NCBI GenBank assembly: GCA_049967855.1
Contig: JBMFRX010000002.1
Coordinates: 67,925 to 131,924 of the forward strand
Direction of reading: 5' to 3'
DNA length: 64,000 nucleotides
From: Caldisericaceae bacterium
GTDB taxonomy: Bacteria; Caldisericota; Caldisericia; Caldisericales; Caldisericaceae
A program made the position numbers and the translations under genes. The notes below the pieces were generated by a model. The model had not been told where the DNA came from, made no database searches, and saw nothing but the letters and a program-made list of their open reading frames with translations. How positions within the stretch are numbered: the stretch's first letter is position 1; every line of letters begins with the position of its first letter. Below are positions 12,218-31,664 of this stretch, piece after piece.

Positions 12218-13123
12218 GTGGTTGCTTTGAAGAAGACTCTTTATGAATTAAGGGAGCAGAACATTCGCAACACGATTCTGTTTATTTTTGTTTTCTCCCT
12301 TATGCTTTTTGCAATTGGATATTTTCTTGTTTATGAGTTCAACTGGGGTTCAACAGGTATTGTAATACTTGGTGTTATTATTATTGTTTACAACTTGATT
12401 GCATACGAGTACTCCGACAAAATTGCTCTTGCTTCAGCGGGGGCTGTTCCTGCGGATCCTGAACAGTATTACGAACTGCACAATGTTGTGGAGGAGGTGG
12501 CACTTGCCGCTGGAATTCCGAAGCCCAAGGTATACATTATGAATGAAGCTCAACCAAATGCTTTTGCAACTGGCAAGAACCCTAAAAATGCTTCAATTTG
12601 CGTTACAACAGGGCTGCTTCAGATGATGAACCGTGAGGAATTGCAGGGTGTTATAGCTCATGAGATGTCGCACATAAGGAACTACGATATTCTCTTGATG
12701 ACAGTAGTAGGAATAATTGCTGGTTTAATTATCATAATAAGAGATGTTGCGTTCCGTGGTATGTGGTTTGGAGTTGGCGAAAGGCGAGGTGGAAGAGATA
12801 GAGATGAGGGAGGAAACATTCTTATGATTATTGGTTTATTGCTTGCAGTTATATCTCCCATCCTTGTAGCTTTAATTCGTGCGGCTGTCTCACGTCAAAG
12901 AGAATTTCTTGCCGATGCTACTGGCGCTTATATAGTTCGCGACCCTAATGGTCTTGCTTCAGCACTTGGCAAAATAGGCTCTTATGAAAAACCAATGCGA
13001 AATGCGACAGAGGCTACTGCTCATATGTTCATAAGTAGTCCCTTTGGGCATATCAATGAAGCTTTTGCTTCTCATCCTCCGATTGAGGAAAGAATTAAGA
13101 GGTTGCTTTCTCTTACTGTGTAA
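12218..13123 (+). CDS. htpX: M48 zinc metalloprotease HtpX
   Basis: [16 protein letters not shown] (HExxH), [19 protein letters not shown]. Confidence 0.92.
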
Positions 13124-13150
13124 TTTGGAATCAATATGATAAATAAAATT

Positions 13151-13175
13151 AAAGGGCGCTAGAAAGCGCCCTTTT
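13151..13175 (+). terminator. Intrinsic terminator after htpX
   Basis: AAAGGGCGCT-AGAA-AGCGCCCTTTT. Confidence 0.85.
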
Positions 13176-13244
13176 GCTATAATTTGCTAATGTGATGGCA
13201 AGGTATTTTTCAAATTTGCATTTTTTTATTATAATTACGCCAAT

Positions 13245-14501
13245 ATGGACAGAGTGCTTAAGTGTGTAAGGTGTGGAAAAGAGTACGATTTATTTTCGTC
13301 TCGTTATAGGTGTGATTGCGGGGGACTGCTTGAGGTTGAGATAAAGGATCCCATAAGTCCATCACTAAAGGAAGTTTTCCAGAGTAGAAAGCTTTCAAAT
13401 AACCCAGCTGATTTTAGTAACGTTTGGAGATATAGAGAATTAGTTCTCGACATTCCATGTAATTCCATTGTAACTCTTCCAGAAGGAAGGACAAACCTTT
13501 ACAGAAAAGATGTTTTGGGAATGGAAGTGTTTTTCAAACACGAAGGCGAAAACCCAACAGGTTCGTTTAAGGATAGAGGAATGACTGTTGGTGTAAGTGT
13601 TGCAAAATACCTTGGTTACAAAGTTACTGCTTGTGCGTCAACAGGAAATACTTCTGCATCTCTTTCAAGCTACTCGGCTCATGCAGGCTTAAAAAGTATT
13701 GTATTCATACCAAAAGGGCACGTAGCCATAGGAAAACTTTCGCAGGCGCTGGCTTATGGAGCTTATGTTTTTGAGATTGCTGGTGATTTTGACGATTCGA
13801 TGAAAATTGTTGAAAAGATAAGCGAAGAGTATAAAGTGTACCTGCTGAATTCTCTTAATCCACTTCGTCTTGAAGGCCAAAAGACAATTATCATAAATAT
13901 ACTCGAGGAACTTGGTTGGCAGGTGCCAGACTGGATAATTCTTCCCGGAGGAAACCTTGGCAATACAAGCGCTTTTGGAAAGGCTCTTAAGGAATTATAC
14001 AAATTTGGTTTTGTTGACAAGATTCCCCACATTGGAGTAATTCAGGCAGAAGGAGCATCTCCTTTTTACAAAGCATATCTGCGTGATTTTGAAGAGTTCG
14101 AGCCTGTAAAGGCAGAAACCATTGCCACTGCAATTCGTATAGGAAATCCAGTAAACTATGAGAAGGCAAAGGAGACTATAAAGTTTACGAAGGGCGTTGT
14201 GGAAGCCGTTTTTGATAAAGAAATCCTTGAAGCAAAGCAAAATATAGATCGGCTGGGCATTGGATGTGAACCTGCGTCTGCTGCAAGTCTTGCAGGACTT
14301 AAGAAACTCGTTGATAGAGGAATTATAAAGAAAACCGATACTGTTGTTTTGTTGCTTACGGGAAGTATCTTAAAAGATCCTGAAACAACAATTAAATTAC
14401 ATTCTGGTCAGCTAGGCAGTTTCCCCGAAAATAGATTCTTCAAAATAGATAATTCAAATGCACTTGATAAAATTTTAGGCTCTCTGTTTTTGGATAGGTG
14501 A
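13245..14501 (+). CDS. thrC: Threonine synthase
   Basis: N-terminal CxxC..CxCGG; KHEGENPTGSFKDRG; CASTGNTSAS; PGGNLGN; CEPASAA. Confidence 0.95.
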   Translation: MDRVLKCVRCGKEYDLFSSRYRCDCGGLLEVEIKDPISPSLKEVFQSRKLSNNPADFSNVWRYRELVLDIPCNSIVTLPEGRTNLYRKDVLGMEVFFKHEGENPTGSFKDRGMTVGVSVAKYLGYKVTACASTGNTSASLSSYSAHAGLKSIVFIPKGHVAIGKLSQALAYGAYVFEIAGDFDDSMKIVEKISEEYKVYLLNSLNPLRLEGQKTIIINILEELGWQVPDWIILPGGNLGNTSAFGKALKELYKFGFVDKIPHIGVIQAEGASPFYKAYLRDFEEFEPVKAETIATAIRIGNPVNYEKAKETIKFTKGVVEAVFDKEILEAKQNIDRLGIGCEPASAASLAGLKKLVDRGIIKKTDTVVLLLTGSILKDPETTIKLHSGQLGSFPENRFFKIDNSNALDKILGSLFLDR

Positions 14502-14506
14502 GATTT

Positions 14507-16882
14507 ATGATCGTGCTAAAATTTGGTGGCACATCTGTAGGAAGTGCAAAGGCAATAAAACAGGTATATGAAATTGTTTCAGGTATCACTGAGTCAAGAG
14601 TTGTTGTTGTGTCAGCGATGAGCGGTGTTACAGACAGCCTTATTAAAGCATTGACTCTTGCTGCGTCTAATGACAAATCTTATGAAGAAGTATTCAACAC
14701 TATTAAGGATAAACACAACGATGTTTCTCTTGAACTTTTTGGGGAAGAGATCGATTCAATTAAAGAACTTCTTTCAGAGCTTGAGCAAATTTTGTTCTCT
14801 ATATACAAATTAGGCGAAGTTTCAGATAAAGCAAATGCACTTGTGCAGTCTTTTGGCGAAAGACTTAATGCAAGAATTGTGTCGAGATATTTTCAGGCGA
14901 AGGGTTTGAAATCGTCTCCAGTTGATGCAACAACTTTTTTGATAACAACTACTGACTATCTTGACGCAAATCCACTATACGATGAAAGCAAAAGAAGAGC
15001 CTCGAAGGTTTTAGGCAGATACATAAAAGAGAATTCTGTTCCTGTAGTAACAGGATACGTGTGTAATGATAAATCTGGCTCAATCACGACGCTTGGAAGG
15101 GGCGGTTCCGATTTTACCGCAACAATTTTGGGCAGACTCCTTGATGCAAGAGAAATCTGGATTTATACGGATGTTAATGGAATACTTACCGCAGATCCAA
15201 AGATTGTAAGAGAAGCAAAGACTATCGAGAAGTTAAGTTTCAGAGAGGTTAGAGAACTCTCTTATTTCGGAGCAAAGGTAATGCACTCAAAATCACTTAT
15301 CCCTGCAATGGAGGGAAATATTCCGATTCGGGTAAAGAATACATTTAATCCCGAAGGACCACATACTCTTATCTCAGCTGAATCAGCAAGTTTTAATGCA
15401 AAAGCAATAACCTCAATCAAGGATGTCGCTCTTGTTTCTATTCTTGGTTTGGGGATGCAGGGACTTAAAGGTATTTCTAAAAGAGTCTTTGAAACTGCTT
15501 CAAAGAGTAATTTTAATGTTGTTATGATCGCACAGTCTTCGTCAGAGCAAAACATAGATATCTTTGTCAGAGAAAGCGATAGCGAGAAATTTGTTACTGC
15601 GTTAAAATATGAATTTGAAAACGAGATGAAACTTAAACTAATTGATATGGTCAGTGTCAGAAAAAATCTTTCCGTCATTTCCATTGTTGGCGAAAACCTC
15701 AATAATATACAAAACGTAAAGAAGGAAATATTTAGAATCACTTATTCTTACAATATAAATGTAATTTCTGTTGTGCAGGGTTCATCTCTAGATAGCATAT
15801 CCTTTGCAGTAAAAAGAAGCGATTTGCAAAAGACAATCAGAGCACTGCATACAGAGTTAGGGCTCATTGGGCATAAGCTTAAAACAATTAACATCTTCCA
15901 ATTCGGAGTAGGTGGCGTAGGAAAGGCACTAATAGAACTTACATCAGAGAATAGTAAAATAACTGAAGAACTCGGAATCAAAATAGACTACCTAGGACTT
16001 GCAAGGTCTAGTTCATTTGCAACTAGTGAAGAGGTAAAGGAGCATATAGATAAGATGGATTTTGGCTTTAAACACTCAGGCAGTCCTTTGAACTACATAA
16101 AAACACTACCAAGAAATACTGTGATTTTGGATTTAACAAACTCCACTGAAATTGCAAATGATTTACTTGAACTTCTTTCTTTAGGATACTATGTGGTTAC
16201 CTCAAATAAAAAGAACCTTGCAGCTGACTTTGACGCATTCCAAAAGTTCACGAAGAATAACAGGCAATTCCTATTTGAAGCGACAGTCGGAGCATCTCTT
16301 CCTATAATAAAGACGATTAAGGATTACTTAAGAACGGGAGATGTTGTTGAAAAGATTATTATGCTTCCATCAGGAACGCTTTCATTTATATTTACACTTT
16401 TCAATACGGGCGTAGACTTGAAGACAGCAATTAATAAAGCGATTGAATTTGGATATACTGAGCCGAATCCAATTGAAGATCTTGTGGGCATGGATCTACT
16501 GAGAAAAGGAAAAATTATTGCATATCTCATTGGAAAGAACTTTGATTCTTCTCAAATCGAGTTTGAATGTTTCACAAAGGCAAAGAATATAGAAGAATTT
16601 TTTGAAAACGATTTTGAACGGTTTCTTAAAAAAGTAGAAAAGCTTTCACGAATTGGTCTGGTCTATCCTGTTGTTGAAATAAGCGATAAATTGAAAATTC
16701 ATTTGACTGCCTTTGGAAAAGATTCCTCTTTTGGAAGCTTGAGGGAAGGAGAAAATGTTTTCGAGATTTATTTGAGGAACTTCTCTGGGATGCCTGTAAC
16801 CATAAAAGGTTTGGGTGCAGGATACAGAGTAACCGCCGAGGCTGTCCTTCAGGATATTTTGAGTTTGGAGGCTTATATATGA
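14507..16882 (+). CDS. thrA: Bifunctional aspartokinase / homoserine dehydrogenase
   Basis: KFGGTSV, TTLGRGGSDFTA, TDVNGILTADP, two ACT domains, GVGGVG, EATVGASLP, GYTEPNPIEDLVGMDLLRK. Start placed at ATG 14507 after SD AGGTGA; GTG 14498 is the alternative. Confidence 0.93.
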   Translation: MIVLKFGGTSVGSAKAIKQVYEIVSGITESRVVVVSAMSGVTDSLIKALTLAASNDKSYEEVFNTIKDKHNDVSLELFGEEIDSIKELLSELEQILFSIYKLGEVSDKANALVQSFGERLNARIVSRYFQAKGLKSSPVDATTFLITTTDYLDANPLYDESKRRASKVLGRYIKENSVPVVTGYVCNDKSGSITTLGRGGSDFTATILGRLLDAREIWIYTDVNGILTADPKIVREAKTIEKLSFREVRELSYFGAKVMHSKSLIPAMEGNIPIRVKNTFNPEGPHTLISAESASFNAKAITSIKDVALVSILGLGMQGLKGISKRVFETASKSNFNVVMIAQSSSEQNIDIFVRESDSEKFVTALKYEFENEMKLKLIDMVSVRKNLSVISIVGENLNNIQNVKKEIFRITYSYNINVISVVQGSSLDSISFAVKRSDLQKTIRALHTELGLIGHKLKTINIFQFGVGGVGKALIELTSENSKITEELGIKIDYLGLARSSSFATSEEVKEHIDKMDFGFKHSGSPLNYIKTLPRNTVILDLTNSTEIANDLLELLSLGYYVVTSNKKNLAADFDAFQKFTKNNRQFLFEATVGASLPIIKTIKDYLRTGDVVEKIIMLPSGTLSFIFTLFNTGVDLKTAINKAIEFGYTEPNPIEDLVGMDLLRKGKIIAYLIGKNFDSSQIEFECFTKAKNIEEFFENDFERFLKKVEKLSRIGLVYPVVEISDKLKIHLTAFGKDSSFGSLREGENVFEIYLRNFSGMPVTIKGLGAGYRVTAEAVLQDILSLEAYI

Positions 16883-17904
16883 AAAAGAAAGTTGCAATTA
16901 TGGGAGCGACGGGGATGGTGGGGCAGAGATTTGTGAGTTTGCTTGACGAACACCCATATTTTGAGGTGACAAGTCTATATGCAAGTAAACATAGCGAAAA
17001 TAAGAAATACGGGGATACTGTAAATTGGATGCTTGAGAAGCCAATTCCGCAATATGCGCAATCGATGACCGTGAAATCATTTGAAGGAAATGAAGGGGTT
17101 GAAGAAAGTATCTTGTTCTCAGCACTTCCTGCTGACGTTGCAAACATCTTAGAAGTGGAGCTTGCAAAGGCTGGAAAATTCGTTTTCTCTAATACATCTT
17201 CCCATAGATATGACCGTTATGTCCCAATCCTGATACCAGAGGTAAACCCTGATCACTTTGAAGCAGTGAGATTTCAAGAAACAAGAGGATTTATTGTAAC
17301 TAATGCGAACTGTTCTACAACTGGACTCGTAATACCTTTAAAAGCACTTTTAGAAAGATTTGCCATTCGTTCTGTTTTTGTCGTGACTATGCAAGCAATC
17401 TCTGGAGGAGGATTAAATGGTGTTTCTGCTCTTCAGATTACTGGGAATATAATTCCTTTTATTGAAAAAGAGGAAGAGAAAATTGAGCTTGAAACTCGTA
17501 AAATTCTTGGTAGCTTCAATGGAGACTTCATCTTGAATGACATTTTTATCTTTGCAAGAGCAAATAGAGTACCTGTTCGTGAAGGTCATACAGAAGTGGC
17601 ATTTGTTGACTTAGATGCAAGTGTTGAAGAGGTGAAAGAGGCGTTTTCGGACTTTAGAGGGATTCCTCAGGAGCTATTATTGCCAACTGCACCAAAAGAA
17701 GTAATCAGAGTATTTGATAATGTTAATCATCCTCAGCCGATACTTGATGTAAATGCAAATTCTGGTATGAGCGTGAGTGTTGGACGAATAAGAAAAAGTG
17801 GAAACTTCATAACCTTTACTCTTCTCTCTCACAATACAGTGAGAGGAGCTGCAGGCGGTAGTGTTCTCAATGCAGAATTTGCCTACAGGAGAGGCTGGAT
17901 ATGA
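16879..17904 (+). CDS. asd: Aspartate-semialdehyde dehydrogenase (archaeal/fungal-type subfamily)
   Basis: GATGMVGQRFVSLLDEHPYF, IPEVNPDH, TNANCST, MQAISG, RVPVREGH, SHNTVRGAAG. Confidence 0.95.
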   Translation: MKKKVAIMGATGMVGQRFVSLLDEHPYFEVTSLYASKHSENKKYGDTVNWMLEKPIPQYAQSMTVKSFEGNEGVEESILFSALPADVANILEVELAKAGKFVFSNTSSHRYDRYVPILIPEVNPDHFEAVRFQETRGFIVTNANCSTTGLVIPLKALLERFAIRSVFVVTMQAISGGGLNGVSALQITGNIIPFIEKEEEKIELETRKILGSFNGDFILNDIFIFARANRVPVREGHTEVAFVDLDASVEEVKEAFSDFRGIPQELLLPTAPKEVIRVFDNVNHPQPILDVNANSGMSVSVGRIRKSGNFITFTLLSHNTVRGAAGGSVLNAEFAYRRGWI

Positions 17905-18911
17905 GTTTTAGAAGAGGCACCTTAAACGACATCTTTAAAGATTACATTGTGTTTCGGGAGCTTAGACCGATAAAAGAAGGGTTATCTAGTTTTGAAGAGT
18001 TAGGTAATAAATCCCATAAGGGATTCCCAAGGAAAAAGGATAAGGAATATGCTGCCATTCTTTGCCAGATTTTCAGAAGTGCAATGAGTTTTTCCAAAAT
18101 TGTTTACATTGGGGACACGTTTTTGTCTGATCTTGCTGTGATTGAAAATATCAAAGAACTCGGATACGATGTTTTTGGTGTTATTACTGATGAAACTGGC
18201 AAAAACTCCGAAAGCAAATATCCTTACATAGTGTTTAATAACTCCTGGGATCAATTGAGTAATTATGTTGTCGACAAGATAAACAATGAGACAGTGCTTG
18301 TTGTTGATATTGATAAAACTGCAATTGGAGCTCGTGGGAGAAATGACTCGTCAGTTGACAAAGCAAGGACCGATGCGATTTTAGATTTAGCAAAAAGAGT
18401 ATTCAAAAACCCAGAAAAGGACGAGTTTATGAGGCTTTACCATTATATACATGCAAAGGACTTCTTAAATTTCACACAGGATAATCAGGATATTGTTTCG
18501 ATACTCTCCCTTATTATATATTCTAACGCAATTTCTTTTGATGATTTTTCAAGTTTTGCGAAGACACGAAAGTTTGAAGAATTCATTCAAGATGTTAAAG
18601 TACAAGGCGAGCTCGTGCCTCTGGTAGACGAGGTGAGGACAAATATTAGGGAAGACAATGCAACACTTTTCCCTACCTTTAGAAGAATTGAGCTTGAAAA
18701 GACTTTAAATAGAATGGATTTTTTGCCAGATGATACGCCAATTGAAAAACTTCTTGAAGAAGAAATATTAATCACGGGAGAAGTTTATAGAATTGGGATA
18801 CGTGCAAACGAGAAAGGTGCACTTGTTTTTGGCGTTTCAGACAAACCAGAGAAAGCCTCATTTAATGATAGCAAAGCACTATTCAGAAAGACAGCCAAAA
18901 TATATCCATAG
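17901..18911 (+). CDS. Hypothetical protein with permuted HAD-superfamily motifs; last gene of the thr operon
   Basis: ATGA overlap with the asd stop; PRK (aa 43-45), IVYIGDTFLSD (aa 67-77), VLVVDIDKT (aa 132-140), LVFGVSDKP (aa 308-316). Confidence 0.65.
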   Translation: MSFRRGTLNDIFKDYIVFRELRPIKEGLSSFEELGNKSHKGFPRKKDKEYAAILCQIFRSAMSFSKIVYIGDTFLSDLAVIENIKELGYDVFGVITDETGKNSESKYPYIVFNNSWDQLSNYVVDKINNETVLVVDIDKTAIGARGRNDSSVDKARTDAILDLAKRVFKNPEKDEFMRLYHYIHAKDFLNFTQDNQDIVSILSLIIYSNAISFDDFSSFAKTRKFEEFIQDVKVQGELVPLVDEVRTNIREDNATLFPTFRRIELEKTLNRMDFLPDDTPIEKLLEEEILITGEVYRIGIRANEKGALVFGVSDKPEKASFNDSKALFRKTAKIYP

Positions 18912-18984
18912 TACCGATGCGCTTAATTTGTTTTTGCTTGTTCAAGGCAAATTTGCATAGATGAATGCTACCTCATCATAAATT

Positions 18985-19009
18985 AAAGGGCGCTTTCTAG
19001 CGCCCTTTT
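18985..19009. terminator. Bidirectional terminator between the thr operon and pckG
   Basis: AAAGGGCGCT-TTCT-AGCGCCCTTTT between convergent genes. Confidence 0.85.
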
Positions 19010-19065
19010 CTGTATGGCTTTTAATCATCAACTGCAAGGCTAGACTTGCAGATTTCTTAATCGTT

Positions 19066-20940
19066 TTATGCAAATCTGTCGGGAGGAATGTAGTCACCAA
19101 AATCTTTTTGTGCCTTTAGTAGGCGCTTTTCTTCTTCATCGTAGAGTTCAAAAACTCTCTCTGGGGTGTTCTTTATCTCTTTGTAAATCTTTCTGAGTCT
19201 AGCAATTTTGGAGATATTTTCAGGGACTCTGATAGTAAATTGTTCAACGTACTCTTCATATGTGTATTCTTTGTCTAATACCCTTTGGAACAATTCACGC
19301 AGGTCGTCATATTTGGGTAAAAAACCTACAGGTGTCTCAATTGCGCCTACATCATTGTGTACCCTCATTTCCATCCACTTTATCCAAACTTTCTTGTCAT
19401 TCTTTTCATTCAAGAATTTGCCATCATTCCCTTTAAGGAAGTAGTTTACACCGAAAATTGCTGGTGGGTTAGTGAGTTTGCTCCCAAAATCGAGGTTGAT
19501 TTTAACATATTTGCCAATCGGTATGGAAAGGAAGTCTAGATTAGACATCGGATTGAAAGCCCTTACTCCAACACTTCCAAGTGTAGCTGCGGTAGTCTCT
19601 GACTCAATTGAAGCCCCTTTCAAGACAATGCCATGCTCCCAATTAAAAGACTGACACACAGGAACCCAAGTGTCAGAATCCCTTCCTCCGTAGATTATTC
19701 CACCGACAAGAGCTCCATCTGGGTCATGCAGTTTTGGGTCTATATTATCGAGTGTTTCAAGATGAAGCGTAAATCTTGCATTTGGGTGCGAAGGTGGAAT
19801 TTCTTTACCTTTTGCATCAACCTTACCCTTAAACCAGTCCCCTGAATGGTTAATCCCTTTTTCCGGAACAGGCCCATCATGTCCTGTCCAATAGACAGAA
19901 CCATCTTCAAGCATTAGTACATTTGAAAAAATAATTTCTCCTTCGTTATGAAGTGCTTTCCATTGTATAGGGTCGTCTTTGGAGTTTACCCCTTCAATAA
20001 TGCCAAACATACCTTTTTCTACATTCACGGCAAATGCCTTACCTTGTTTTTCTCTTATGTAGGCTATGTCATCTCCAACGATTGATTCTCCTTCGAGCAT
20101 TGAAGTTGATGTCTTTCCACACATAGATGGGAAAGCGCCTGTAAAATATGTGACCCTTCCATTTGGCCCGTGTACCCCCATAAGAAGCATATGCTCGTTA
20201 AGCCACCCTTCATTTGATGCTCTGTTGATTGCAAGTCGCATTGCAAGTTTCTTAAGACCGATAGTATTGCCACCATATTGTGTATTGACTGAATATGTTG
20301 TTTCTCCTTTGAGGTCTATATAGATTCGCCGATTCTGGAGATTTTTGCAAACGTGTCTTTCGTCAAGTTCACCCTGTGAATGTATAAATCTAAAGAATCT
20401 TCCATTGTCCCCAAGTCTTTTGAATTCATTATAGCCCTGTCGGTAAAGGATGTTATCGGAGTGAGCTACGTATGCAGAGTCAGTAATCTGAACAGAGGGT
20501 ATAGAGAATATTGAGTTTTCAGGGCCAAGCGAAAAGAAACATACAAACATCTCTCGTCCAAGCATTATATTCCTCATAATTTCATGAACTTCTCGAAGAT
20601 TCTCTTCTTTTTCTCCTGTAACAATTTGGCTGCCAAGGTCAACTCCACTCTCAACTAAGATTTTAGTGTGTTCTTTGTCCCTGCCCTGGTCACCGTAGGC
20701 ATCGAAGTGTAGAGTATGGCCTTTAATCTTAAGATTAACCTCTTCCTCATTCCTTAGAGCCTTGTCTTTAATGTATTTAAGGTCTTTTTCAGAACCATCA
20801 GAAATAAAGATATTCTGAGGATTGCAAAGCTCAATATACTTTGCAATGAATTCTTCAAGTTGGTGGTTTCCCAGAGCAACAAGCTTGCGATAATTCTCCC
20901 CATCAAGCTTTTCTCTTAGAGTTTCATTTGCAGTTTTCAT
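19066..20940 (-). CDS. pckG: Phosphoenolpyruvate carboxykinase (GTP)
   Basis: QYGGNTIGLKK, GWLNEHM, AFPSMCGKTSTSM, VGDDIAY, HPNARF, GIIYGGRD, NPMSNLDF. Confidence 0.93.
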   Translation of the reverse strand: MKTANETLREKLDGENYRKLVALGNHQLEEFIAKYIELCNPQNIFISDGSEKDLKYIKDKALRNEEEVNLKIKGHTLHFDAYGDQGRDKEHTKILVESGVDLGSQIVTGEKEENLREVHEIMRNIMLGREMFVCFFSLGPENSIFSIPSVQITDSAYVAHSDNILYRQGYNEFKRLGDNGRFFRFIHSQGELDERHVCKNLQNRRIYIDLKGETTYSVNTQYGGNTIGLKKLAMRLAINRASNEGWLNEHMLLMGVHGPNGRVTYFTGAFPSMCGKTSTSMLEGESIVGDDIAYIREKQGKAFAVNVEKGMFGIIEGVNSKDDPIQWKALHNEGEIIFSNVLMLEDGSVYWTGHDGPVPEKGINHSGDWFKGKVDAKGKEIPPSHPNARFTLHLETLDNIDPKLHDPDGALVGGIIYGGRDSDTWVPVCQSFNWEHGIVLKGASIESETTAATLGSVGVRAFNPMSNLDFLSIPIGKYVKINLDFGSKLTNPPAIFGVNYFLKGNDGKFLNEKNDKKVWIKWMEMRVHNDVGAIETPVGFLPKYDDLRELFQRVLDKEYTYEEYVEQFTIRVPENISKIARLRKIYKEIKNTPERVFELYDEEEKRLLKAQKDFGDYIPPDRFA

Positions 20941-20964: not shown

Positions 20965-22119
20965 TTAAATGTTGAAATTGCTCCTAATTTGTAAGAATTT
21001 ACTAACACTTTTGCCTGGCGCGATCGGTATTCCAAGATTTAAAAGAGTAGATTCAAGAGCGGCTAACGTAACAAGTATATCATTTGAATTTATGAACCCC
21101 ATATGTCCAACTCTGAAGGCTTTGCTTTTCAGTTCTCCCTGGGTTGTTGCTATTTCTACGTTGTAATTTTCTCTCATTTTCTTTACAATTTCATCGGCAT
21201 TTACTCCTTCTGGTGAATAAACTCCAGTTACGCAGGGCGATGCGTCAGCATCATTTGCAACAAACTTAAGCTGCAATTCGGCAATAGACTTTCTTGTGAG
21301 CTCCTTGCAGAGCTCGTGTCTTTTGTATGCATTTTGCAGCCCCTCTTCGTAAAGCATTTTTAATCCCTCATTAAGACCAAAACAGTCTGATACAGGGAAA
21401 GTGGTGAATGGCTGTCCTAGGTCTCCATTCTTTTTCAGTTCCTTTATGCTAAAATAAAAAGCGTCAGTTTCGTTTGAAAGAGCATATTCAAGTGCACGTT
21501 TGCTAACTCCTACTATCCCAATTCCTGGAGGACTCATAAGGCCCTTCTGCGACGCTGCCACAACAACATCAAGATTCCATTCTTCCATGTTTATTTCTGC
21601 AATCCCTATTGAGCTCACTCCATCAACTATTATAAGGGCATCTGTAATTTGCTTTATTTGATTCGAAATTTCCTTAATATTGTTTATGACCGTGGACGAT
21701 GTTTCGTTATGCGTTAGGAACACCGCTTTGATGTCTGTATTTGCCTTGAGTACTTCTAATATTTCTTGAGGTTCTACAGCTCTTCCCCACGGTATCGCAA
21801 GTCTAATTGCATTTCTTCCATGAGCTATGTTAATTTTGTAGAAACGCTCTCCGAAGAATCCAGTATCGGCGATAAGTACTTTATCTCCCCTGTGAGTGAA
21901 ATTTTCCACGGCAAGCTCCATTGCTCCTGTGCCTGATGATGGAATGAGAAAGACATCCTGTTTGCATTTAATCATTTCTTTAAGCATTGACACTGAATCT
22001 AAAAATATTGCTTTGAACTTAGGACCTCTATGGTTGGTCATCGGCTTCTGCATTGCTGCAAGAACGCGCGGTGGAAGAGGTGTTGGGCCTGGGATCATTA
22101 AATATTCTTTATCAAGCAT
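20965..22119 (-). CDS. Class V PLP aminotransferase (alanine-glyoxylate, serine-pyruvate or phosphoserine type)
   Basis: LMIPGPTP, SSGTGAME, THNETSS, IVDGVSS, ASQKGLMSPPG, FRVGHMG. Confidence 0.9.
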   Translation of the reverse strand: MLDKEYLMIPGPTPLPPRVLAAMQKPMTNHRGPKFKAIFLDSVSMLKEMIKCKQDVFLIPSSGTGAMELAVENFTHRGDKVLIADTGFFGERFYKINIAHGRNAIRLAIPWGRAVEPQEILEVLKANTDIKAVFLTHNETSSTVINNIKEISNQIKQITDALIIVDGVSSIGIAEINMEEWNLDVVVAASQKGLMSPPGIGIVGVSKRALEYALSNETDAFYFSIKELKKNGDLGQPFTTFPVSDCFGLNEGLKMLYEEGLQNAYKRHELCKELTRKSIAELQLKFVANDADASPCVTGVYSPEGVNADEIVKKMRENYNVEIATTQGELKSKAFRVGHMGFINSNDILVTLAALESTLLNLGIPIAPGKSVSKFLQIRSNFNI

Positions 22120-28063: not shown

Positions 28064-30382
28064 TTATATTCTAATTTTCTTATAAACGAATAATTTTAGC
28101 AAGTCAGTGAATAGCAGGGTAACAACGAATGTATATGCAAGAGCTATCAGTATATGGATTATGGGGATTCTGGTCACGAATATACCCAGGTAGACAATTA
28201 ATGTAGCCACAGCTATATCAGAAGCAATTGCAATTAAAATAGTATTGCTCGGTCGTGACCTTAAGAAGAATCTTTCCTCTCTAAAATTGAGAATATTCAA
28301 CAAGCCCGAAACAAGTAATAGGTAAAACATCAGCGTTTGCATCTGACTGAAAGGAAGTTTGAGATATTTAAAGGCAAGATACATTGCAAGGAACAGTTCA
28401 AGAATTTTCAATGAACCGAAAATCAAAGAAAGTTTTATCAGCTTGCTCACATTCCACCTCTCGGGCTTTTTTGATGCAACAACATTGTCTGTTGCTATAG
28501 ACATTGTAACAAAGTCATATAGAAAAAGCATTAAGACCATTTCAACAGGTGTAATTACGGGTTTTCCAAGTATCAATGTAGCAATTGAAACAAAGAATAC
28601 AATCTGGAATGTTTTTACAACTTTATTAATTATCCAGAGCACAATTCTTCTATATATTTGTCTGCCAGTATTTATGAGATCAACAATATTTGAAAGACCC
28701 GAACGTGTAAGGATTACTTTTGCCGACTGTTTTGCTATCTCAAGTGAATTTGAGACAGCAATTCCTAAGTCTGCTTTCTTTAGAGCAGGAGCATCATTTG
28801 CGCCGTCTCCAGTCATGCCAACAACATGATTTTTTGACTGGTAAATACCTACTATATTAAACTTGTCTTCTGGTACAACTTCTGCAAAAGTGTCTATATT
28901 TTCTGCAGCCGTTTTCTTATCGTCTTTCCAATCGTGAATGCTTACGACATTGCTCCCAATTCCGACGCTCTCTGCAACTGACTTTGCAATTAACGTATTG
29001 TCGCCTGTAACCATTTTTACAGAAATACCCATATCTTTTATCTTTCCAATAAAATCTTTTGAATCACTTCTTGGATAGTCAAAGAATGTAAGCAGGCCAA
29101 TTGTAATAGTCTGCCCATCTCTTTTGCAGGAAATAATAAGGCTTCTCTTACCATCTTTAGCAAAACTCTCCACAATCTTGCTTATTTTTTCGTTATCGGT
29201 GGGAGACATTGGCATTAGGATTTGTGGAGCACCTTTCATAACTAAGAAACTGCTTTTGCCTTCACTTACTTCTGCTGCCGAGAATTTCTTATCAGGGTCA
29301 AAAGGATAAAACTTAACGAGCCTAAATCTGTTCTTAACTTTATCTTTGGAGTATTCAATGACCGCTGAGTCGATTGGGTCTTTCGTGACGGGGTCGGAAG
29401 CAAGCAGGGCTAACTCCAATACGTCTGCTTCTAAATACGATGTGTCAAAAACTATCACATCGGAGATTCTTATTTTATTCTCAGTAATAGTGCCAGTTTT
29501 ATCAAGGCAAAGAACATCCATCATTGCACTGTTCTCTATCCCATCCAATTTCCTTATTAGCACTCCTTTTTTTGCAAGTTCAAGCGAGCCTAACGACAAT
29601 GCAAGCACGGTCATTGCAGGCAGCGCAACAGGAATTGAAGCAATGAGAAGAGTAAGTATTATTGGAAGAGTGTCTTTGAGAGGCGTTCCTGAAATAATGA
29701 ATTTCGCAAGCACTGCTACAATAAAGAATGCGTCAACAACTAAAAGACCCTTTGTGACGCTCATTGTTATGTCTTCTATAATCAATTTAGGATGGGCCTT
29801 CTCAATGAGTTCGGCAGTCTTTCCAAAATAGGTTTTGCCACCTGTTGCTGTAACCCTGCAAATTGCTGCGCCTCTCGTAACGAGGCTTCCCGAAAAAATC
29901 TTGCTGTCTAAACCACGTTCCTGTGCAATTGATTCTCCTGTGAGCGTCGATTGGTCAACAAGTATATTTCCGTTCACTATATTAGCATCGGCTGGTACTA
30001 TGTCCCCCATTGATACTTTAATTATGTCATTCGGTACAATTTCCCTTGCAGGAATTTCTTGCCAGGAACCGTCCCTTAATACTTTTGCAGTTATTTTGAG
30101 CCTTTGCTTAAGTGCGTCTATTGCTTTTGTTGCTCTGAATTCCTGCGTGAATCCCAAAACTGCATTGAGTATAAGAAGAGCAAACATTACAATTGAGTCT
30201 ACATAATTCTTAAGAAAAGCCGAGATTATCATTGACGCTTCTATAACGTAGGCTGTCAACCCTGTAAATCTTTTCATAAAATCAAGCACTAAACTCTGTT
30301 TTTTTTCGATAATTTCGTTCGCTCCGTATTGCTTAAACAGTTCCTCAGCTTCGTTTGTGGAAAGCCCTTTTAATTCGTCCAT
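28064..30382 (-). CDS. P-type ATPase, plasma-membrane proton-efflux (P3A) type
   Basis: LTGES, ASIPVALP, DKTGT, KGAP, TGDN, TGDGANDAPALK, YDFVTMSIATDN; start at MDELKGL after SD AGGGGG. Confidence 0.88.
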   Translation of the reverse strand: MDELKGLSTNEAEELFKQYGANEIIEKKQSLVLDFMKRFTGLTAYVIEASMIISAFLKNYVDSIVMFALLILNAVLGFTQEFRATKAIDALKQRLKITAKVLRDGSWQEIPAREIVPNDIIKVSMGDIVPADANIVNGNILVDQSTLTGESIAQERGLDSKIFSGSLVTRGAAICRVTATGGKTYFGKTAELIEKAHPKLIIEDITMSVTKGLLVVDAFFIVAVLAKFIISGTPLKDTLPIILTLLIASIPVALPAMTVLALSLGSLELAKKGVLIRKLDGIENSAMMDVLCLDKTGTITENKIRISDVIVFDTSYLEADVLELALLASDPVTKDPIDSAVIEYSKDKVKNRFRLVKFYPFDPDKKFSAAEVSEGKSSFLVMKGAPQILMPMSPTDNEKISKIVESFAKDGKRSLIISCKRDGQTITIGLLTFFDYPRSDSKDFIGKIKDMGISVKMVTGDNTLIAKSVAESVGIGSNVVSIHDWKDDKKTAAENIDTFAEVVPEDKFNIVGIYQSKNHVVGMTGDGANDAPALKKADLGIAVSNSLEIAKQSAKVILTRSGLSNIVDLINTGRQIYRRIVLWIINKVVKTFQIVFFVSIATLILGKPVITPVEMVLMLFLYDFVTMSIATDNVVASKKPERWNVSKLIKLSLIFGSLKILELFLAMYLAFKYLKLPFSQMQTLMFYLLLVSGLLNILNFREERFFLRSRPSNTILIAIASDIAVATLIVYLGIFVTRIPIIHILIALAYTFVVTLLFTDLLKLFVYKKIRI

Positions 30383-30392
30383 AATACCCCCT

Positions 30393-31664
30393 TTAATCAA
30401 TTATTATAGTGAAAGTTGAACCAACACTCTCCTCGCTTCTAACTTCGATATGTGCACCAATTTTCTGTGCAAGGTTATATGCAATTGAGAGACCCAATCC
30501 TGCTCCGCCTGTTTCTCTTGAACGCGACTTTTCTCCTCTGTAAAATCTGTCAAAAATGTGAGGTAAATCTTCTCTGGCAATTCCAATACCTGTATCTTTA
30601 ATATTTATTCTTACGCCCTTATATTTGGAGTCAACATAAATTTTTACATTTCCGCCATATTTATTGAATTTAATTGCGTTTTCTACTATAATACCAAGGA
30701 TTTCCTCAAGGGCTTCCCTGTTTGTTTCAACGAAAGCATTTGTGCTTTCTGAGTCAAGGCTTATGTTTTTTTGCAAAGCTGAATCAGTGAATCTTTTTTT
30801 GACATCGTTTATAAGGAGGTTGAGATCGACTTTTTCTTTTCTGAACTCATAAGACCCAGAATCCATATCGGACAAATGGAGCATGTTTGTTATGATACTC
30901 GCCATTCTGTTAACTGAGTTGTTAATCACATCCAGCTTCTCTCTGTAATATTGTATTTCTTTTACATCTTTTGAAAGGGCAACGTCAATATTTGCTTTTA
31001 TAGCAGCAATAGGTGTTTTTAGCTCATGAGAAGCATCCTCAGTAAATTGTCTCAAGTCTCTGTAAGATTGCTCAATTGGATTTATGGCAGTACTTGCCAA
31101 TTTATAAGAGGCTAACAGCGTAATTATTAATATGAATGGTAAAATTAACAAGAACGAAAGCAAGATATTGTTAATTGAGTTGCTTATATCTTCATAGGTC
31201 ATTCCAACTGTTACGTAATAAGGCTGATTTTGAACGGAAGCCGTGTAAGCCCTGATTTTTTGCAAGATTTCTTTGTTATCCACCTGTTCCAAATATGTTC
31301 CAAATGAAAATTTATCAGGCTCTATTTTTATTTTAGGACTGTTTATTGCAGATGACAAGAAGGCGACGTTTCCCTTATTATCAGTTATTTCGATAATTTC
31401 GTTTCCGCTTTGCAAAGTACTCTGAGACAATTTCAGTGAATTGAGCAATTCACTGCTTAATTCTTCTCTTCCTGAAAGTGTTGAGGCTATTGATGCAGCT
31501 CTTTGCATTATACTTGTATCGAAATTCTTGTAAACGCTGTTTGAATAAACTACAAAGAAAGATGCCATTAATAATGCCGAAATAAGAATAGTAATGAGGG
31601 TATAAGTAATTGCCAGTCTCAGTTTTTGCCTTTTGACCCGTTTTTCAATGTCATTCAATCTCAT
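30393..31664 (-). CDS. Sensor histidine kinase
   Basis: Two TM helices; DASHELKTP; ENAIKF; DTGIGI; FDRFYRG; GAGLGLSI. Confidence 0.95.
   Translation of the reverse strand: MRLNDIEKRVKRQKLRLAITYTLITILISALLMASFFVVYSNSVYKNFDTSIMQRAASIASTLSGREELSSELLNSLKLSQSTLQSGNEIIEITDNKGNVAFLSSAINSPKIKIEPDKFSFGTYLEQVDNKEILQKIRAYTASVQNQPYYVTVGMTYEDISNSINNILLSFLLILPFILIITLLASYKLASTAINPIEQSYRDLRQFTEDASHELKTPIAAIKANIDVALSKDVKEIQYYREKLDVINNSVNRMASIITNMLHLSDMDSGSYEFRKEKVDLNLLINDVKKRFTDSALQKNISLDSESTNAFVETNREALEEILGIIVENAIKFNKYGGNVKIYVDSKYKGVRINIKDTGIGIAREDLPHIFDRFYRGEKSRSRETGGAGLGLSIAYNLAQKIGAHIEVRSEESVGSTFTIIID

What the first reader, a model, noticed from the sequence alone, without database searches (positions are those of the whole stretch)
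13245..18911. thr operon lacks thrB but ends in a circularly permuted HAD protein: candidate new homoserine-phosphorylating enzyme
Seen: thrC-thrA-asd-ORF(17901..18911) form one tightly packed unit, and the ORF overlaps the asd stop (ATGA). It encodes every Asp-to-Thr step except homoserine to O-phosphohomoserine. The 336-aa ORF has no GHMP (PxxxGLGSS) or APH kinase motif. It has HAD-like motifs in non-canonical order: motif III-like Lys (PRK, aa 43-45), motif IV (IVYIGDTFLSD, aa 67-77), motif I (VLVVDIDKT, DxDxT, aa 132-140), a long helical cap-like insert, then motif II (LVFGVSDKP, aa 308-316). The canonical order is I-II-III-IV. Established: Pseudomonas ThrH is a HAD phosphoserine:homoserine phosphotransferase that can replace ThrB. 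Inference: this is a permuted HAD family filling the thrB gap through a phospho-Asp136 intermediate.
Basis: partly seen in the sequence, partly recalled or inferred. Interest (0 to 1): 0.88.

Follow-up and report, generated by a model that had tools for sequence, protein, structure and literature searches.

The report
Candidate new homoserine-phosphorylating enzyme family
The last gene of this threonine operon encodes an unannotated, HAD-like enzyme with its catalytic motifs in rearranged order that most likely replaces the missing homoserine kinase, a step that is still unexplained in many bacteria.

Summary
thrC (13245-14501), thrA (14498-16882), asd (16879-17904) and a 336-aa ORF "X" (17901-18911) are joined by 4-nt overlaps.

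X matches no Pfam, NCBIfam or PDB sequence. The genome (99.99% complete) has no ThrB, APH-type ThrB, ThrH or ApgM/HomK-type gene. Its only GHMP kinases are galK and ispE.

X defines a conserved family: 201 cluster representatives at E<=1e-3.
- In 69 of 80 loci from other genomes it lies within 5 kb of asd, aspartokinase, hom or thrC. In 52 of 80, asd is directly upstream.
- Some Anaerolineaceae encode an aspartokinase-X fusion.
- X and thrB never co-occur: 0 of 20 X genomes among 93 Caldisericota and 0 of 22 among 251 Chloroflexota, against 176 of 229 X-less Chloroflexota with thrB.

All four HAD motifs are (nearly) invariant, in the order III-IV-I-cap-II. Weak profile and fold matches agree with that register.

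Most likely X is a circularly permuted HAD-type homoserine phosphotransferase or kinase. The phosphate donor is unknown, and the 3D convergence of the motifs could not be checked. I found no paper describing it.

The parts
13151..13174 (.). 24-nt GC-rich hairpin (AAAGGGCGC-6 nt-GCGCCCTTT) upstream of thrC. It is a perfect inverted copy of the one after X.
   Evidence: only 2 copies in the 64-kb window; 0 expected in 100 shuffles
13207..13235 (+). sigma-70-like promoter match (TTTTCA-17-TATAAT) 10 nt before the thrC start
   Evidence: 10 of 12 positions match. This is a consensus match only.
13245..14501 (+). thrC, threonine synthase (418 aa)
   Evidence: PALP; TIGR00260 258 bits (cut-off 167.1)
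14498..16882 (+). thrA, bifunctional aspartokinase / homoserine dehydrogenase (794 aa)
   Evidence: AA_kinase, ACT_9, NAD_binding_3, Homoserine_dh; NF006959 644 bits (below its cut-off of 726)
16879..17904 (+). asd, aspartate-semialdehyde dehydrogenase (341 aa, asd_EA type)
   Evidence: TIGR00978 410 bits (cut-off 301.2)
17901..18911 (+). ORF X (336 aa): candidate permuted HAD-type homoserine phosphotransferase/kinase
18027..18035 (+). P43-R44-K45: HAD motif III-like Lys, just before helix 48-61
   Evidence: hhalign pairs K45 with the motif III Lys of a HAD_2 family.
18099..18131 (+). IVYIGDTFLSD (aa 67-77): HAD motif IV-like GDxxxxD at the end of strand 66-71
   Evidence: G71, D72, T73 and D77 are invariant.
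18294..18320 (+). VLVVDIDKT (aa 132-140): HAD motif I-like DxDxT at the end of strand 131-136. D136 is the inferred nucleophile.
   Evidence: D136, D138, K139 and T140 are invariant. DxDxT is also kept in distant multi-domain relatives.
18330..18812 (+). all-helical insert (aa 144-304) in the position of a C1 cap. Invariant polar residues: R147, N148, R156, Y180, T192, D194, N195, Q196, D197, R261, E264, T268, T292, E294.
18822..18848 (+). LVFGVSDKP (aa 308-316): HAD motif II-like Ser/Thr at the end of strand 308-312
   Evidence: A weak PF00702 match of homologue P0065 covers this region in register.
18985..19008 (.). terminator-like hairpin after X, shared with the convergent PEPCK gene

Best explanation
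ORF X is the founding member, in this window, of an unannotated protein family that replaces homoserine kinase (ThrB) in Caldisericota, WOR-3 and part of the Chloroflexota.

X is most likely a circularly permuted HAD-superfamily phosphotransferase. The N-terminal third carries the motif III Lys (K45) and motif IV (G71-D72...D77). Next come the motif I strand (D136-x-D138-x-T140), a 160-residue helical cap, and the motif II strand (S313).

Inferred mechanism:
- D136 takes a phosphoryl group from a donor to form an aspartyl-phosphate. Mg2+ is held by D136, D72 and D77, and the phosphate by S313 and K45.
- D138 acts as general acid/base.
- The closed cap presents the gamma-hydroxyl of L-homoserine, giving O-phospho-L-homoserine.
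- The ThrC encoded in the same operon converts that product to threonine.

What is shown: gene order, conservation, linkage to the operon, the aspartokinase fusion, and exclusion with thrB. What is inferred: HAD ancestry, the phospho-Asp chemistry, and the product. The donor is unknown. Candidates are ATP, phosphoserine as in ThrH, aspartyl-4-phosphate, PPi and acetyl-phosphate.
For: 1. The gap is real.
- The genome is 99.99% complete. Its two GHMP kinases are galK and ispE.
- TIGR00191 (thrB) gives only 39 bits, on ispE.
- TIGR00938, TIGR02137 (ThrH) and PF10143 (ApgM/HomK) give no match at E<=1.
- The other Asp-to-Thr steps are all in the operon.

2. Linkage.
- 69 of 80 loci from other genomes have asd, AK, hom or thrC within 5 kb of X.
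- asd is directly upstream on the same strand in 52 of 80.

3. Fusion. One cluster of 6 Anaerolineaceae proteins, from JGI, NCBI and Logan, is AA_kinase + ACT + X.

4. Complementary distribution.
- Caldisericota, 93 genomes: X in 20, thrB (E<=1e-20) in 21, both in 0. ThrC scoring 241 bits or more occurs only in genomes with X or with thrB.
- Chloroflexota sample, 251 genomes: X in 22, thrB (E<=1e-25) in 176, both in 0. Fisher p = 2e-13, not corrected for kinship.
- Four further X genomes also lack thrB.

5. X is not simply the missing SerB. Canonical serB is absent from 249 of 251 Chloroflexota whether or not they carry X, and the 2 genomes that have serB also have X.

6. HAD character.
- All four motifs fit the HAD signatures and are invariant or nearly so.
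- In an AF2 model (pLDDT 94.3) they sit at the ends of strands 66-71, 131-136 and 308-312, and before helix 48-61.
- hhalign aligns X residues 24-124 to the motif III-IV end of a HAD_2 family in exact register, P 0.0007-0.005.
- Three weak Pfam hits (PF00702, NIF, Hydrolase_like) fall in the same permuted register.
- When the C-terminal fragment is folded alone, all 8 VIA rows that span both strands start at target residues 1-8. Five of the 8 are HAD or beta-PGM by title.
- 10 of 41 listed Foldseek rows, including rank 1, are HAD-type by title.
- In the ESM Atlas, the nearest named clusters are all HAD, at score 0.78.
Against: - No experiment exists, and no RNA or DNA sequencing run was listed for this stretch.
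- Every sequence or fold similarity to HAD is individually below significance:
  - 0 of 46 members reach a Pfam gathering score.
  - Foldseek finds nothing at E<=1e-3.
  - VIA gives Z 4.4-5.9, which is in the tool's stated noise range.
  - Permuting the alignment did not raise the hhalign score.
- The whole model matches generic Rossmann-like folds better, up to Z 7.1.
- Most HADs are phosphatases, not kinases.
- 11 of 30 X genomes carry an ApgM/HomK-fold protein. None reaches the HomK cut-off, but a confirmed HomK from Dehalococcoides does not reach it either.
- 11 of 80 loci show no Asp-pathway neighbour within 5 kb.
- The genome counts come from related genomes and from MAGs.
Confidence: 0.68

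Rival explanations
1. X is an ordinary HAD-like phosphatase, or a regulator, that works in aspartate-family metabolism. It might dephosphorylate phosphoserine, O-phosphohomoserine or aspartyl-phosphate. On this reading homoserine is phosphorylated by some other, still unknown enzyme.
For: - Most HAD enzymes are phosphatases (established knowledge).
- The own genome also lacks canonical serB, and its serA is not clear.
- No activity data exist.
Against: - A phosphatase would not be expected to exclude thrB, yet 0 of 46 X genomes examined have thrB.
- serB is missing from 249 of 251 Chloroflexota regardless of X, and the 2 genomes with serB also carry X.
- X travels with asd, AK and thrC, not with ser genes.
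- In Caldisericota, the operon-type ThrC occurs only where X or thrB is present.
Confidence: 0.15
2. X fills the thrB gap but is not derived from HAD. It would be a classical Rossmann-like (321456) domain that acquired DxDxT / S / K / GDxxxxD-like residues by convergence, possibly with different chemistry such as direct in-line transfer from a nucleotide.
For: - The best whole-model matches are generic Rossmann-like folds: LacI-type, ribokinase-like, SAM methyltransferases and 2-hydroxyacid dehydrogenases, Z 5.6-7.1.
- No HAD match is significant by itself.
- A HAD sheet (54123) permuted between strands 3 and 4 has the same strand order as a Rossmann fold. Topology therefore cannot separate the two readings (inference).
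Against: - All four HAD motifs are present, with the right spacing, hydrophobic lead-ins and secondary-structure context.
- Independent weak hits all point to HAD and all fall in the permuted register.
- No nucleotide-binding glycine-rich loop is conserved.
Confidence: 0.12
3. X activates homoserine, or acts on another pathway intermediate, in a chemically different way. It could, for example, make another homoserine ester used by this ThrC, or salvage a related compound. The exclusion with thrB would then reflect a different pathway variant rather than the same reaction.
For: - The donor and the product are unknown.
- In 2 of 80 loci X follows an archaeal-type SAM synthetase, and in 2 an aspartate-aminotransferase-like gene.
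Against: - The partner ThrC scores as an ordinary equivalog: 258 bits against a cut-off of 167.1.
- That ThrC groups by score with the ThrC of thrB-bearing Caldisericota.
- Known threonine synthases use O-phosphohomoserine (established knowledge).
- The motif set is that of phosphoryl transfer.
Confidence: 0.05

Closest known systems
ThrH (Pseudomonas aeruginosa phosphoserine:homoserine phosphotransferase, HAD family; TIGR02137)
   Same: - It is a HAD-type enzyme that forms O-phosphohomoserine through an aspartyl-phosphate and can stand in for ThrB. This is cited in GapMind 2026 (passages read).
- X has the same motif chemistry (DxDxT, S/T, K, acidic motif IV) and a cap inserted after motif I.
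   Different: - No detectable sequence relationship: TIGR02137 finds nothing in the genome at E<=1, and X has no NCBIfam hit.
- The motifs are in the order III-IV-I-II.
- The cap is about 160 residues.
- X sits inside thr operons and excludes thrB.
- The donor is not known.
ThrB, GHMP-type homoserine kinase (TIGR00191 / PF00288)
   Same: Same inferred pathway step. X shows a complementary phyletic pattern and lies at the same kind of operon position next to thrC, hom and asd.
   Different: Unrelated fold and motifs: X has no PF00288 or TIGR00191 match. ThrB transfers phosphate directly from ATP, whereas X probably works through a covalent phospho-Asp.
HomK / ThrB2 (BT2402, TIGR02535; ApgM-like metalloenzyme)
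   Same: It is a precedent for non-orthologous replacement of ThrB. It was found by the same logic of operon context and complementary occurrence, and later confirmed by complementation of E. coli thrB::kan (passages of PMC9026213 and of 10.1101/2024.10.14.618325).
   Different: Different superfamily (alkaline-phosphatase-like). PF10143 is absent from this genome.
C1-capped HAD phosphatases and mutases (phosphoglycolate phosphatase / HAD_2, beta-phosphoglucomutase, L-2-haloacid dehalogenase)
   Same: - The four motifs.
- The motif I strand followed by a helical cap and then the motif II strand.
- These are the only PDB folds that align across the whole C-terminal fragment.
- hhalign pairs the K and GDxxxD region in register.
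   Different: - Canonical motif order I-II-III-IV.
- Caps of about 70-80 residues.
- Significant Pfam membership, which X lacks.
P-type ATPase P-domain (one lies in this window at 28064-30400, PF00702)
   Same: HAD core phosphorylated on Asp from ATP, with a large inserted nucleotide-binding domain. This is a precedent for a HAD that takes phosphate from ATP (established knowledge). The 'DKT' tripeptide also occurs in X.
   Different: It is a membrane pump with canonical motif order. In X the DKT lies within DxDKT, so the +2 residue is Asp, as in phosphatases and mutases.

Membership tests
HAD superfamily | Motif I: hydrophobic strand ending in DxDx[TV] | tested here: met
   VLVVDIDKT at aa 132-140, at the end of strand 131-136. 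D136, D138 and T140 are invariant in 46 sequences and are kept in 28 distant relatives.
HAD superfamily | Motif II: Ser/Thr at the end of a hydrophobic strand | tested here: met
   LVFGVS313 at the end of strand 308-312. S or T in at least 90% of sequences.
HAD superfamily | Motif III Lys/Arg before the helix that leads to the motif IV strand, and motif IV (DD, GDxxxD or GDxxxxD; these signatures are recalled) | tested here: met
   K45 lies before helix 48-61. G71-D72-x4-D77 lies at the end of strand 66-71. All are invariant. hhalign pairs them with the SKPDP and IGDSxxD of a HAD_2 family.
HAD superfamily | Canonical order I-II-III-IV along the chain | tested here: not met
   The order is III-IV-I-cap-II. 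This is compatible only with a circular permutation.
HAD superfamily | Significant match to a curated HAD model (Pfam clan) or to a solved HAD structure | tested here: inconclusive
   - 0 of 46 members are over a gathering score. Single weak hits: PF00702 E 0.0031, NIF 0.058, Hydrolase_like 0.12.
- PDB profile search: none.
- Foldseek: nothing at E<=1e-3.
- VIA: Z 4.4-5.9 to HADs.
HAD superfamily | Catalytic residues converge at one site, with squiggle and flap after motif I | not testable with these tools
   Model coordinates are not returned. Only the secondary-structure string and aligned ranges are available.
ThrH (TIGR02137) | Match to the HSK-PSP equivalog model | tested here: not met
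   No hit in the genome at E<=1. X has no NCBIfam hit at E<=1.
ThrB, GHMP type (TIGR00191 / PF00288) | GHMP kinase domains | tested here: not met
   X has no Pfam or NCBIfam hit. The genome's PF00288 genes are galK and ispE.
HomK / ThrB2 (TIGR02535, PF10143) | ApgM-like PhosphMutase/Metalloenzyme domains | tested here: not met
   No PF10143 match in the genome at E<=1, and none in X.
Functional class 'homoserine kinase/phosphotransferase' (works like) | Forms O-phospho-L-homoserine and rescues a thrB mutant | not testable with these tools
   Only comparative evidence is available: operon linkage in 69 of 80 loci, the AK fusion, and 0 of 46 co-occurrence with thrB.

The most novel reading that the evidence does not exclude
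X is not an ATP-dependent kinase. It would be a phosphate relay inside the aspartate pathway, taking the phosphoryl group from L-aspartyl-4-phosphate onto D136 and passing it to L-homoserine. Aspartyl-4-phosphate is the acyl-phosphate made by the aspartokinase encoded two genes upstream, which is fused to X in some Anaerolineaceae. Donor and acceptor would be two look-alike C4 amino acids using one cap pocket in ping-pong fashion. That would make X the first naturally circularly permuted HAD enzyme and a new reaction in threonine synthesis.
Probability: 0.1. Interest if true: 0.95.

Novelty: new variant of a known kind. Interest (0 to 1): 0.85.

Why it matters
Homoserine kinase is one of the four steps that still account for most unexplained gaps in amino-acid biosynthesis. 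GapMind 2026 reports thrB missing in 16 of 208 prototrophic genomes and warns against calling such genomes auxotrophs (passages read).

A testable candidate that closes this gap for Caldisericota, WOR-3 and a sizeable part of Chloroflexota would correct auxotrophy predictions for these largely uncultured lineages. One Atlas cluster of the family alone has 932 members.

It would also add a further independent solution for homoserine phosphorylation, after ThrB, the APH-type ThrB, ThrH and HomK.

Structurally it would be a natural circular permutation of the HAD fold. I found no such case in print (searches; passages).

The same permuted core, with its catalytic residues kept, also occurs in multi-domain proteins of unknown role. 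The family is therefore wider than threonine synthesis.

Tried and rejected
- Foldseek of the full model and of the C-terminal fragment against PDB found nothing at E<=1e-3.
- A PDB sequence search and a PDB profile search found no relative. The only row was a ribosomal L38 chain at E 0.38.
- VIA-wide on the full model gave only generic Rossmann-like matches, Z<=7.1.
- hhalign with the alignment circularly permuted at 33 cut points did not increase the score. The motif III-IV segment alone carries it, and motif I adds nothing against this template.
- A quick Gaussian DCA on 284 sequences, meant to recover strand pairings, was dominated by gap and indel artefacts and was discarded.
- Rfam found no leader or riboswitch in 12500-19500 at E<=0.1.
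- Earlier findings of this scan: nothing for this sequence.
- I looked for an 'empty site' in the same-genus genome G022, which lacks the operon. Its two flanks lie on different contigs and nothing could be concluded.
- The GHMP kinase next to X in L052 was checked as a possible ThrB. It is a mevalonate kinase: TIGR00549, 265 bits.
- X as the missing SerB was considered and ranked low.
- Complex prediction was not used, because the report claims no protein-protein binding.
- The GapMind 2026 supplements held as text do not name Chloroflexota or Caldisericum genomes. Whether any of its 16 thrB-gap genomes carries X remains open.


Full report
**1. The observation**

The + strand carries four back-to-back ORFs:
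- 13245-14501 (418 aa)
- 14498-16882 (794 aa)
- 16879-17904 (341 aa)
- 17901-18911 (336 aa, here called X)

Each junction overlaps by 4 nt. At the asd/X junction the sequence reads ATGA at 17901-17904.

Pfam and NCBIfam identify the first three genes:
- Threonine synthase: TIGR00260, 258 bits against a cut-off of 167.1.
- Bifunctional aspartokinase/homoserine dehydrogenase: AA_kinase, ACT, NAD_binding_3 and Homoserine_dh. NF006959 scores 644 bits, below its cut-off of 726.
- Aspartate-semialdehyde dehydrogenase: TIGR00978, 410 bits.

X has no Pfam hit at E<=0.01, no NCBIfam hit at E<=1, and no PDB sequence hit at E<=10.

A consensus promoter match lies 10 nt before thrC. The operon is bracketed by two perfect inverted copies of a 24-nt GC hairpin (13151-13174 and 18985-19008). 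These are the only two copies in the window, and the second has the look of an intrinsic terminator shared with the convergent PEPCK gene. Rfam finds nothing in 12500-19500.

**2. The gap is real**

The window lies in a 1.30-Mb assembly of 42 contigs, rated 99.99% complete. It holds two GHMP kinases. NCBIfam names them galactokinase (NF003705, 496 bits, next to galT) and IspE (TIGR00154, 158 bits).

Searches for the known homoserine-phosphorylating types gave:

| Model | Type | Result |
|---|---|---|
| TIGR00191 | thrB | 39 bits, on ispE only |
| TIGR00938 | APH-type thrB | no match at E<=1 |
| TIGR02137 | ThrH | no match at E<=1 |
| PF10143 | ApgM/HomK fold | no match at E<=1 |

The control genomes responded in every one of these searches. 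All four known kinds of homoserine-phosphorylating enzyme are therefore missing, while every other step from aspartate to threonine is encoded in the operon.

**3. X is a conserved family**

- The word-indexed search gave 112 proteins at E<=1e-3. All but one are unnamed or 'hypothetical'. One JGI entry carries an unrelated dioxygenase-like name. The hits include Caldisericum exile at 60% identity.
- The exhaustive representative search gave 201 proteins at E<=1e-3, 126 at E<=1e-10 and 24 at E<=1e-30.
- In 46 aligned homologues (29-63% identical to X), 34 columns are invariant. These include R19, P43-R44-K45, G71-D72-T73, D77, W116, D136, D138-K139-T140, G146-R147-N148, R156, Y180, T192, D194-N195-Q196-D197, F257, R261, E264, T268, T292, E294 and D314-K315-P316.
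- The ESM Atlas holds the family in clusters with no common Pfam. One has 932 members, mostly Chloroflexota.
- A quick tree of 78 X proteins splits into a Caldisericota + WOR-3 clade and a Chloroflexota clade, with phylum labels largely monophyletic (quick tree, midpoint root for drawing only). Inheritance therefore looks mainly vertical within phyla.

**4. Genomic context elsewhere**

A scan of one genome per GTDB species matched 152 stretches. Of these, 140 encode a relative and the best 80 were kept. tblastn with the window's own ThrC, AK, HSD and Asd gave:
- 69 of 80 loci have at least one of these genes within 5 kb of X.
- By gene: asd in 56, AK in 43, thrC in 37, hom in 24.
- asd lies immediately upstream on the same strand in 52 of 80.

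Of the 11 loci without such a neighbour, one is a contig-edge fragment. Two have an aspartate-aminotransferase-like gene upstream, two have an archaeal-type SAM synthetase upstream, and the rest have unrelated neighbours. A GHMP kinase beside X in L052 is a mevalonate kinase, not ThrB.

Among the longer relatives, P0135 (841 aa) is AA_kinase + ACT + X. Its 90% cluster has 6 members from JGI, NCBI (Anaerolineaceae MAGs, named 'aspartate kinase') and Logan. The fusion is therefore not a single assembly artefact.

**5. Phyletic pattern**

*Caldisericota (all 93 held genomes):*
- X at E<=1e-10 occurs in 20: the own genome, 14 of 25 others in its family, and 5 of 9 in a second family.
- thrB at E<=1e-20 occurs in 21, all within one genus-level group (21 of 23).
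- No genome has both.
- TIGR00260 hits of 241 bits or more occur only in genomes with X or with thrB. In X genomes they lie about 4.5 kb from X on the same contig.
- A second ThrC-like paralogue (about 205-230 bits) is widespread, including in genomes with neither gene.
- One genome (G005) has only an X remnant with in-frame stops, and it has lost the operon-type thrC.

*Chloroflexota (an evenly drawn sample of 251 genomes):*
- X occurs in 22.
- thrB at E<=1e-25 occurs in 176, of which 169 are over the cut-off.
- Comparing the two lists by hand, none of the 22 X genomes is among the 176.
- Fisher p = 2.4e-13. This number ignores kinship and overstates the evidence.
- Three of the 176 thrB-positive genomes (G258, G123, G255) are flagged unpublished. 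Without them the count is 173 of 248 (p = 3e-13).

*Further X genomes:* four more (a Chloroflexia, an Anaerolineae, a WOR-3 and a 'Thermotogae'-labelled MAG) also lack thrB over the cut-off. In total, 0 of 46 X genomes examined hold thrB.

**6. Is X instead the missing phosphoserine phosphatase?**

The own genome has no serB over the cut-off. However, canonical serB is absent from 249 of 251 sampled Chloroflexota whether or not they carry X, and the two genomes that do have it are both X carriers. X therefore tracks the absence of thrB, not of serB.

One caveat concerns HomK. Eleven of 30 X genomes have an ApgM/HomK-fold protein. None reaches the HomK model's cut-off: the best is 279.5 bits against 446.3. 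That model also misses the experimentally confirmed Dehalococcoides HomK, so those 11 genomes remain ambiguous. The own genome has no such protein.

**7. Fold and motifs**

AF2 with the 46-sequence alignment gives a confident model, pLDDT 94.3 and pTM 0.90. The order of elements is:
- short N-terminal strands
- helix 48-61
- strand 66-71
- helix 74-86
- strand 90-96
- strand 110-113
- helix 116-126
- strand 131-136
- an all-helical insert, 144-304
- strand 308-312
- strand 332-334

The motifs sit where HAD motifs sit:
- K45 just before the helix that leads into the strand ending in G71-D72 (motifs III and IV).
- DxDxT at the end of strand 131-136 (motif I), followed by the insert in the position of a C1 cap.
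- S313 at the end of the next core strand (motif II).

A HAD sheet (order 5-4-1-2-3, recalled) cut between motifs II and III and re-joined at the old termini has the strand order of a classical Rossmann fold. That fits the whole-model VIA matches to LacI-type, ribokinase-like, methyltransferase and dehydrogenase domains, Z 5.6-7.1. It also means topology alone cannot prove HAD ancestry.

Evidence specific to HAD is consistent but weak:
- hhalign was run against 26 HAD_2 (phosphoglycolate-phosphatase-like) proteins of the same bacterial family. It aligns X residues 24-124 to their C-terminal motif III-IV part, pairing K45 with the SKPDP Lys and IGDTFLSD with IGDSIN-D, at P 0.0007-0.005. Permuting the query did not raise the score.
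- Of 46 members scanned at E<=10, one hits PF00702 (E 0.0031; its residues 299-370 against profile 53-128). One hits NIF (0.058; residues 49-118 against profile 65-135 of 160). One hits Hydrolase_like (0.12; residues 59-93). All three are in the permuted register.
- On the full model, VIA lists one HAD phosphatase: 6iah_A, Z 5.9, model 131-334 against chain 1-166. The Atlas structure search lists a HAD cluster at TM 0.36 over residues 102-332. The nearest named clusters by language-model features are all HAD, at 0.78, below the tool's trust level.
- The C-terminal fragment (127-336) folded alone gives pLDDT 93.4.
  - In VIA-wide, the top rows (Z up to 6.4) match only the helical insert to T4-lysozyme-like bundles.
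  - All 8 rows that span both strands begin at residues 1-8 of the target. Five of the 8 are HAD or beta-phosphoglucomutase by title, and a sixth is the phosphatase 6iah. Z is 4.4-5.2.
  - Foldseek on the fragment has no hit at E<=1e-3. Ten of the 41 listed rows, including rank 1, are L-2-haloacid dehalogenases, HAD hydrolases or beta-PGM by title.
- Model coordinates are not returned by the tools, so the convergence of the six residues was not measured.

**8. A wider family**

Weaker relatives of 500-1040 aa carry the X-like domain fused to other domains:
- an N-terminal DUF4062 (9 of the 28 scanned)
- a calcineurin-like phosphoesterase (1)
- a C-terminal JAB domain (1)
- unrecognised regions in the others

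Aligned to the X profile, 28 such proteins keep R19, R44-K45, G71-D72, D77, W116, DxDxT (mostly DIDQT), R156, Y180, DN[QEM]D and SD[KR]P. Two of them lack the C-terminal part. In contrast, R147-N148, T292 and E294 are largely restricted to X proper and its closest relatives, including the JAB fusion P0180 and P0183. Those restricted residues are candidates for substrate specificity.

**9. Mechanism**

The best reading is a HAD-type phosphoryl transfer. D136 is phosphorylated by a donor, and D138 then acts as the general base for attack by the homoserine hydroxyl. The large cap closes over the site to exclude water and bind the amino-acid moiety. ThrC consumes the product. All of this is inference from family chemistry.

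The donor is open:
- ThrH uses phosphoserine (cited).
- P-type ATPases show that a HAD core can be phosphorylated by ATP (established knowledge).
- The aspartokinase fusion and adjacency make aspartyl-4-phosphate an attractive but untested donor.
- Whether the own genome makes phosphoserine is unclear. No serA is over the cut-off. A class-V aminotransferase at 20965-22119 is unassigned.

**10. Literature**

- Searches for 'homoserine kinase' combined with 'missing/novel/threonine biosynthesis', 'haloacid dehalogenase' or 'GapMind' found no description of this family.
- From passages of Ashniev et al. 2022 (PMC9026213): ThrB2 (BT2402 type) was predicted by the same kind of evidence, and 50 gut genomes lack both ThrB and ThrB2.
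- From passages of GapMind 2026 (bioRxiv 10.1101/2024.10.14.618325 = PMC13759103): BT2402 (HomK) and a Dehalococcoides homologue rescue E. coli thrB::kan, and thrB is still missing in 16 of 208 prototrophs. The supplements held as text do not name Chloroflexota or Caldisericum.
- Searches for 'circular permutation' + 'haloacid dehalogenase' and for 'circularly permuted' + 'HAD superfamily' (passages of two papers) found no natural permuted HAD. Subscription journals are not covered by this library.

**11. Verdict**

X is a strong, experimentally testable candidate for a further, non-orthologous homoserine-phosphorylating enzyme.

My confidence:
- About 0.8 that X replaces ThrB functionally.
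- About 0.8 that X is a permuted HAD derivative.
- About 0.68 for the combined statement.

Novelty: a new variant of a known kind. The reaction is known and there is a HAD-type precedent in ThrH, but the family, the topology and the operon role are new.

Noticed in passing
window 13151-13174 and 18985-19008: Two perfect inverted copies of a 24-nt GC-rich hairpin bracket exactly the thrC-thrA-asd-X unit, with 5810 nt between them. They are the only copies in the 64-kb window. They could be shared bidirectional terminators or the ends of a transferred cassette. The same-genus genome G022 lacks the whole operon.
   Followed up: partly
L129:4878-6134 (-) = G000:C5:41877-43133: A second ThrC-like gene (418 aa) passes NF006050 (322 bits against 303) and TIGR00260. 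It sits next to four genes resembling a 'putative B6 ABC transporter'. This paralogue is widespread in Caldisericota, including genomes with neither X nor thrB. Its substrate is unclear.
   Followed up: partly
proteins P0185, P0193, P0207, P0210, P0219, P0222, P0225, P0250, P0255 (DUF4062 fusions), P0224 (Metallophos fusion), P0180 (JAB fusion): Multi-domain proteins of 500-1040 aa carry an X-like domain with the catalytic motifs kept (DIDQT, RK, GDT, SDRP) but with different cap residues. This suggests a wider permuted-HAD-like family with other, unknown roles.
   Followed up: partly
Chloroflexota sample and own genome: Canonical SerB (TIGR00338) is over the cut-off in only 2 of 251 sampled Chloroflexota and is absent from the window's genome. 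Phosphoserine phosphatase is a separate, phylum-wide gap.
   Followed up: partly
G005:C54:49354-49707, G015 (C43 and C79), G197:C70:31684-32733: Some X copies are remnants or carry in-frame stops. G005 has an 87-aa open frame with 2 TAA. G015 is split over two contig ends, with stops. G197 has 1 TAA. G005 has also lost the operon-type thrC.
   Followed up: no
L047 (CAZMWB010000001.1): A 193-kb contig of a bin labelled 'uncultured Klebsiella sp.' has a thrC-AK-asd-X locus nearly identical to that of a Chloroflexota MAG (L041; tree branch lengths 0.004-0.008). The bin label is probably wrong.
   Followed up: no
rows such as G324:C11, G264:C35, G191:C102, G104:C39: Several Chloroflexota thrB matches lie in open frames of 740-850 aa. 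This suggests ThrB fusions, or read-through with a neighbouring gene.
   Followed up: no
window 20965-22119 (-): A class-V aminotransferase next to PEPCK scores best to aspartate-glyoxylate aminotransferase BhcA (282 bits, far below the cut-off of 650) and only weakly to SerC models. It might be a SerC3-type phosphoserine aminotransferase.
   Followed up: no
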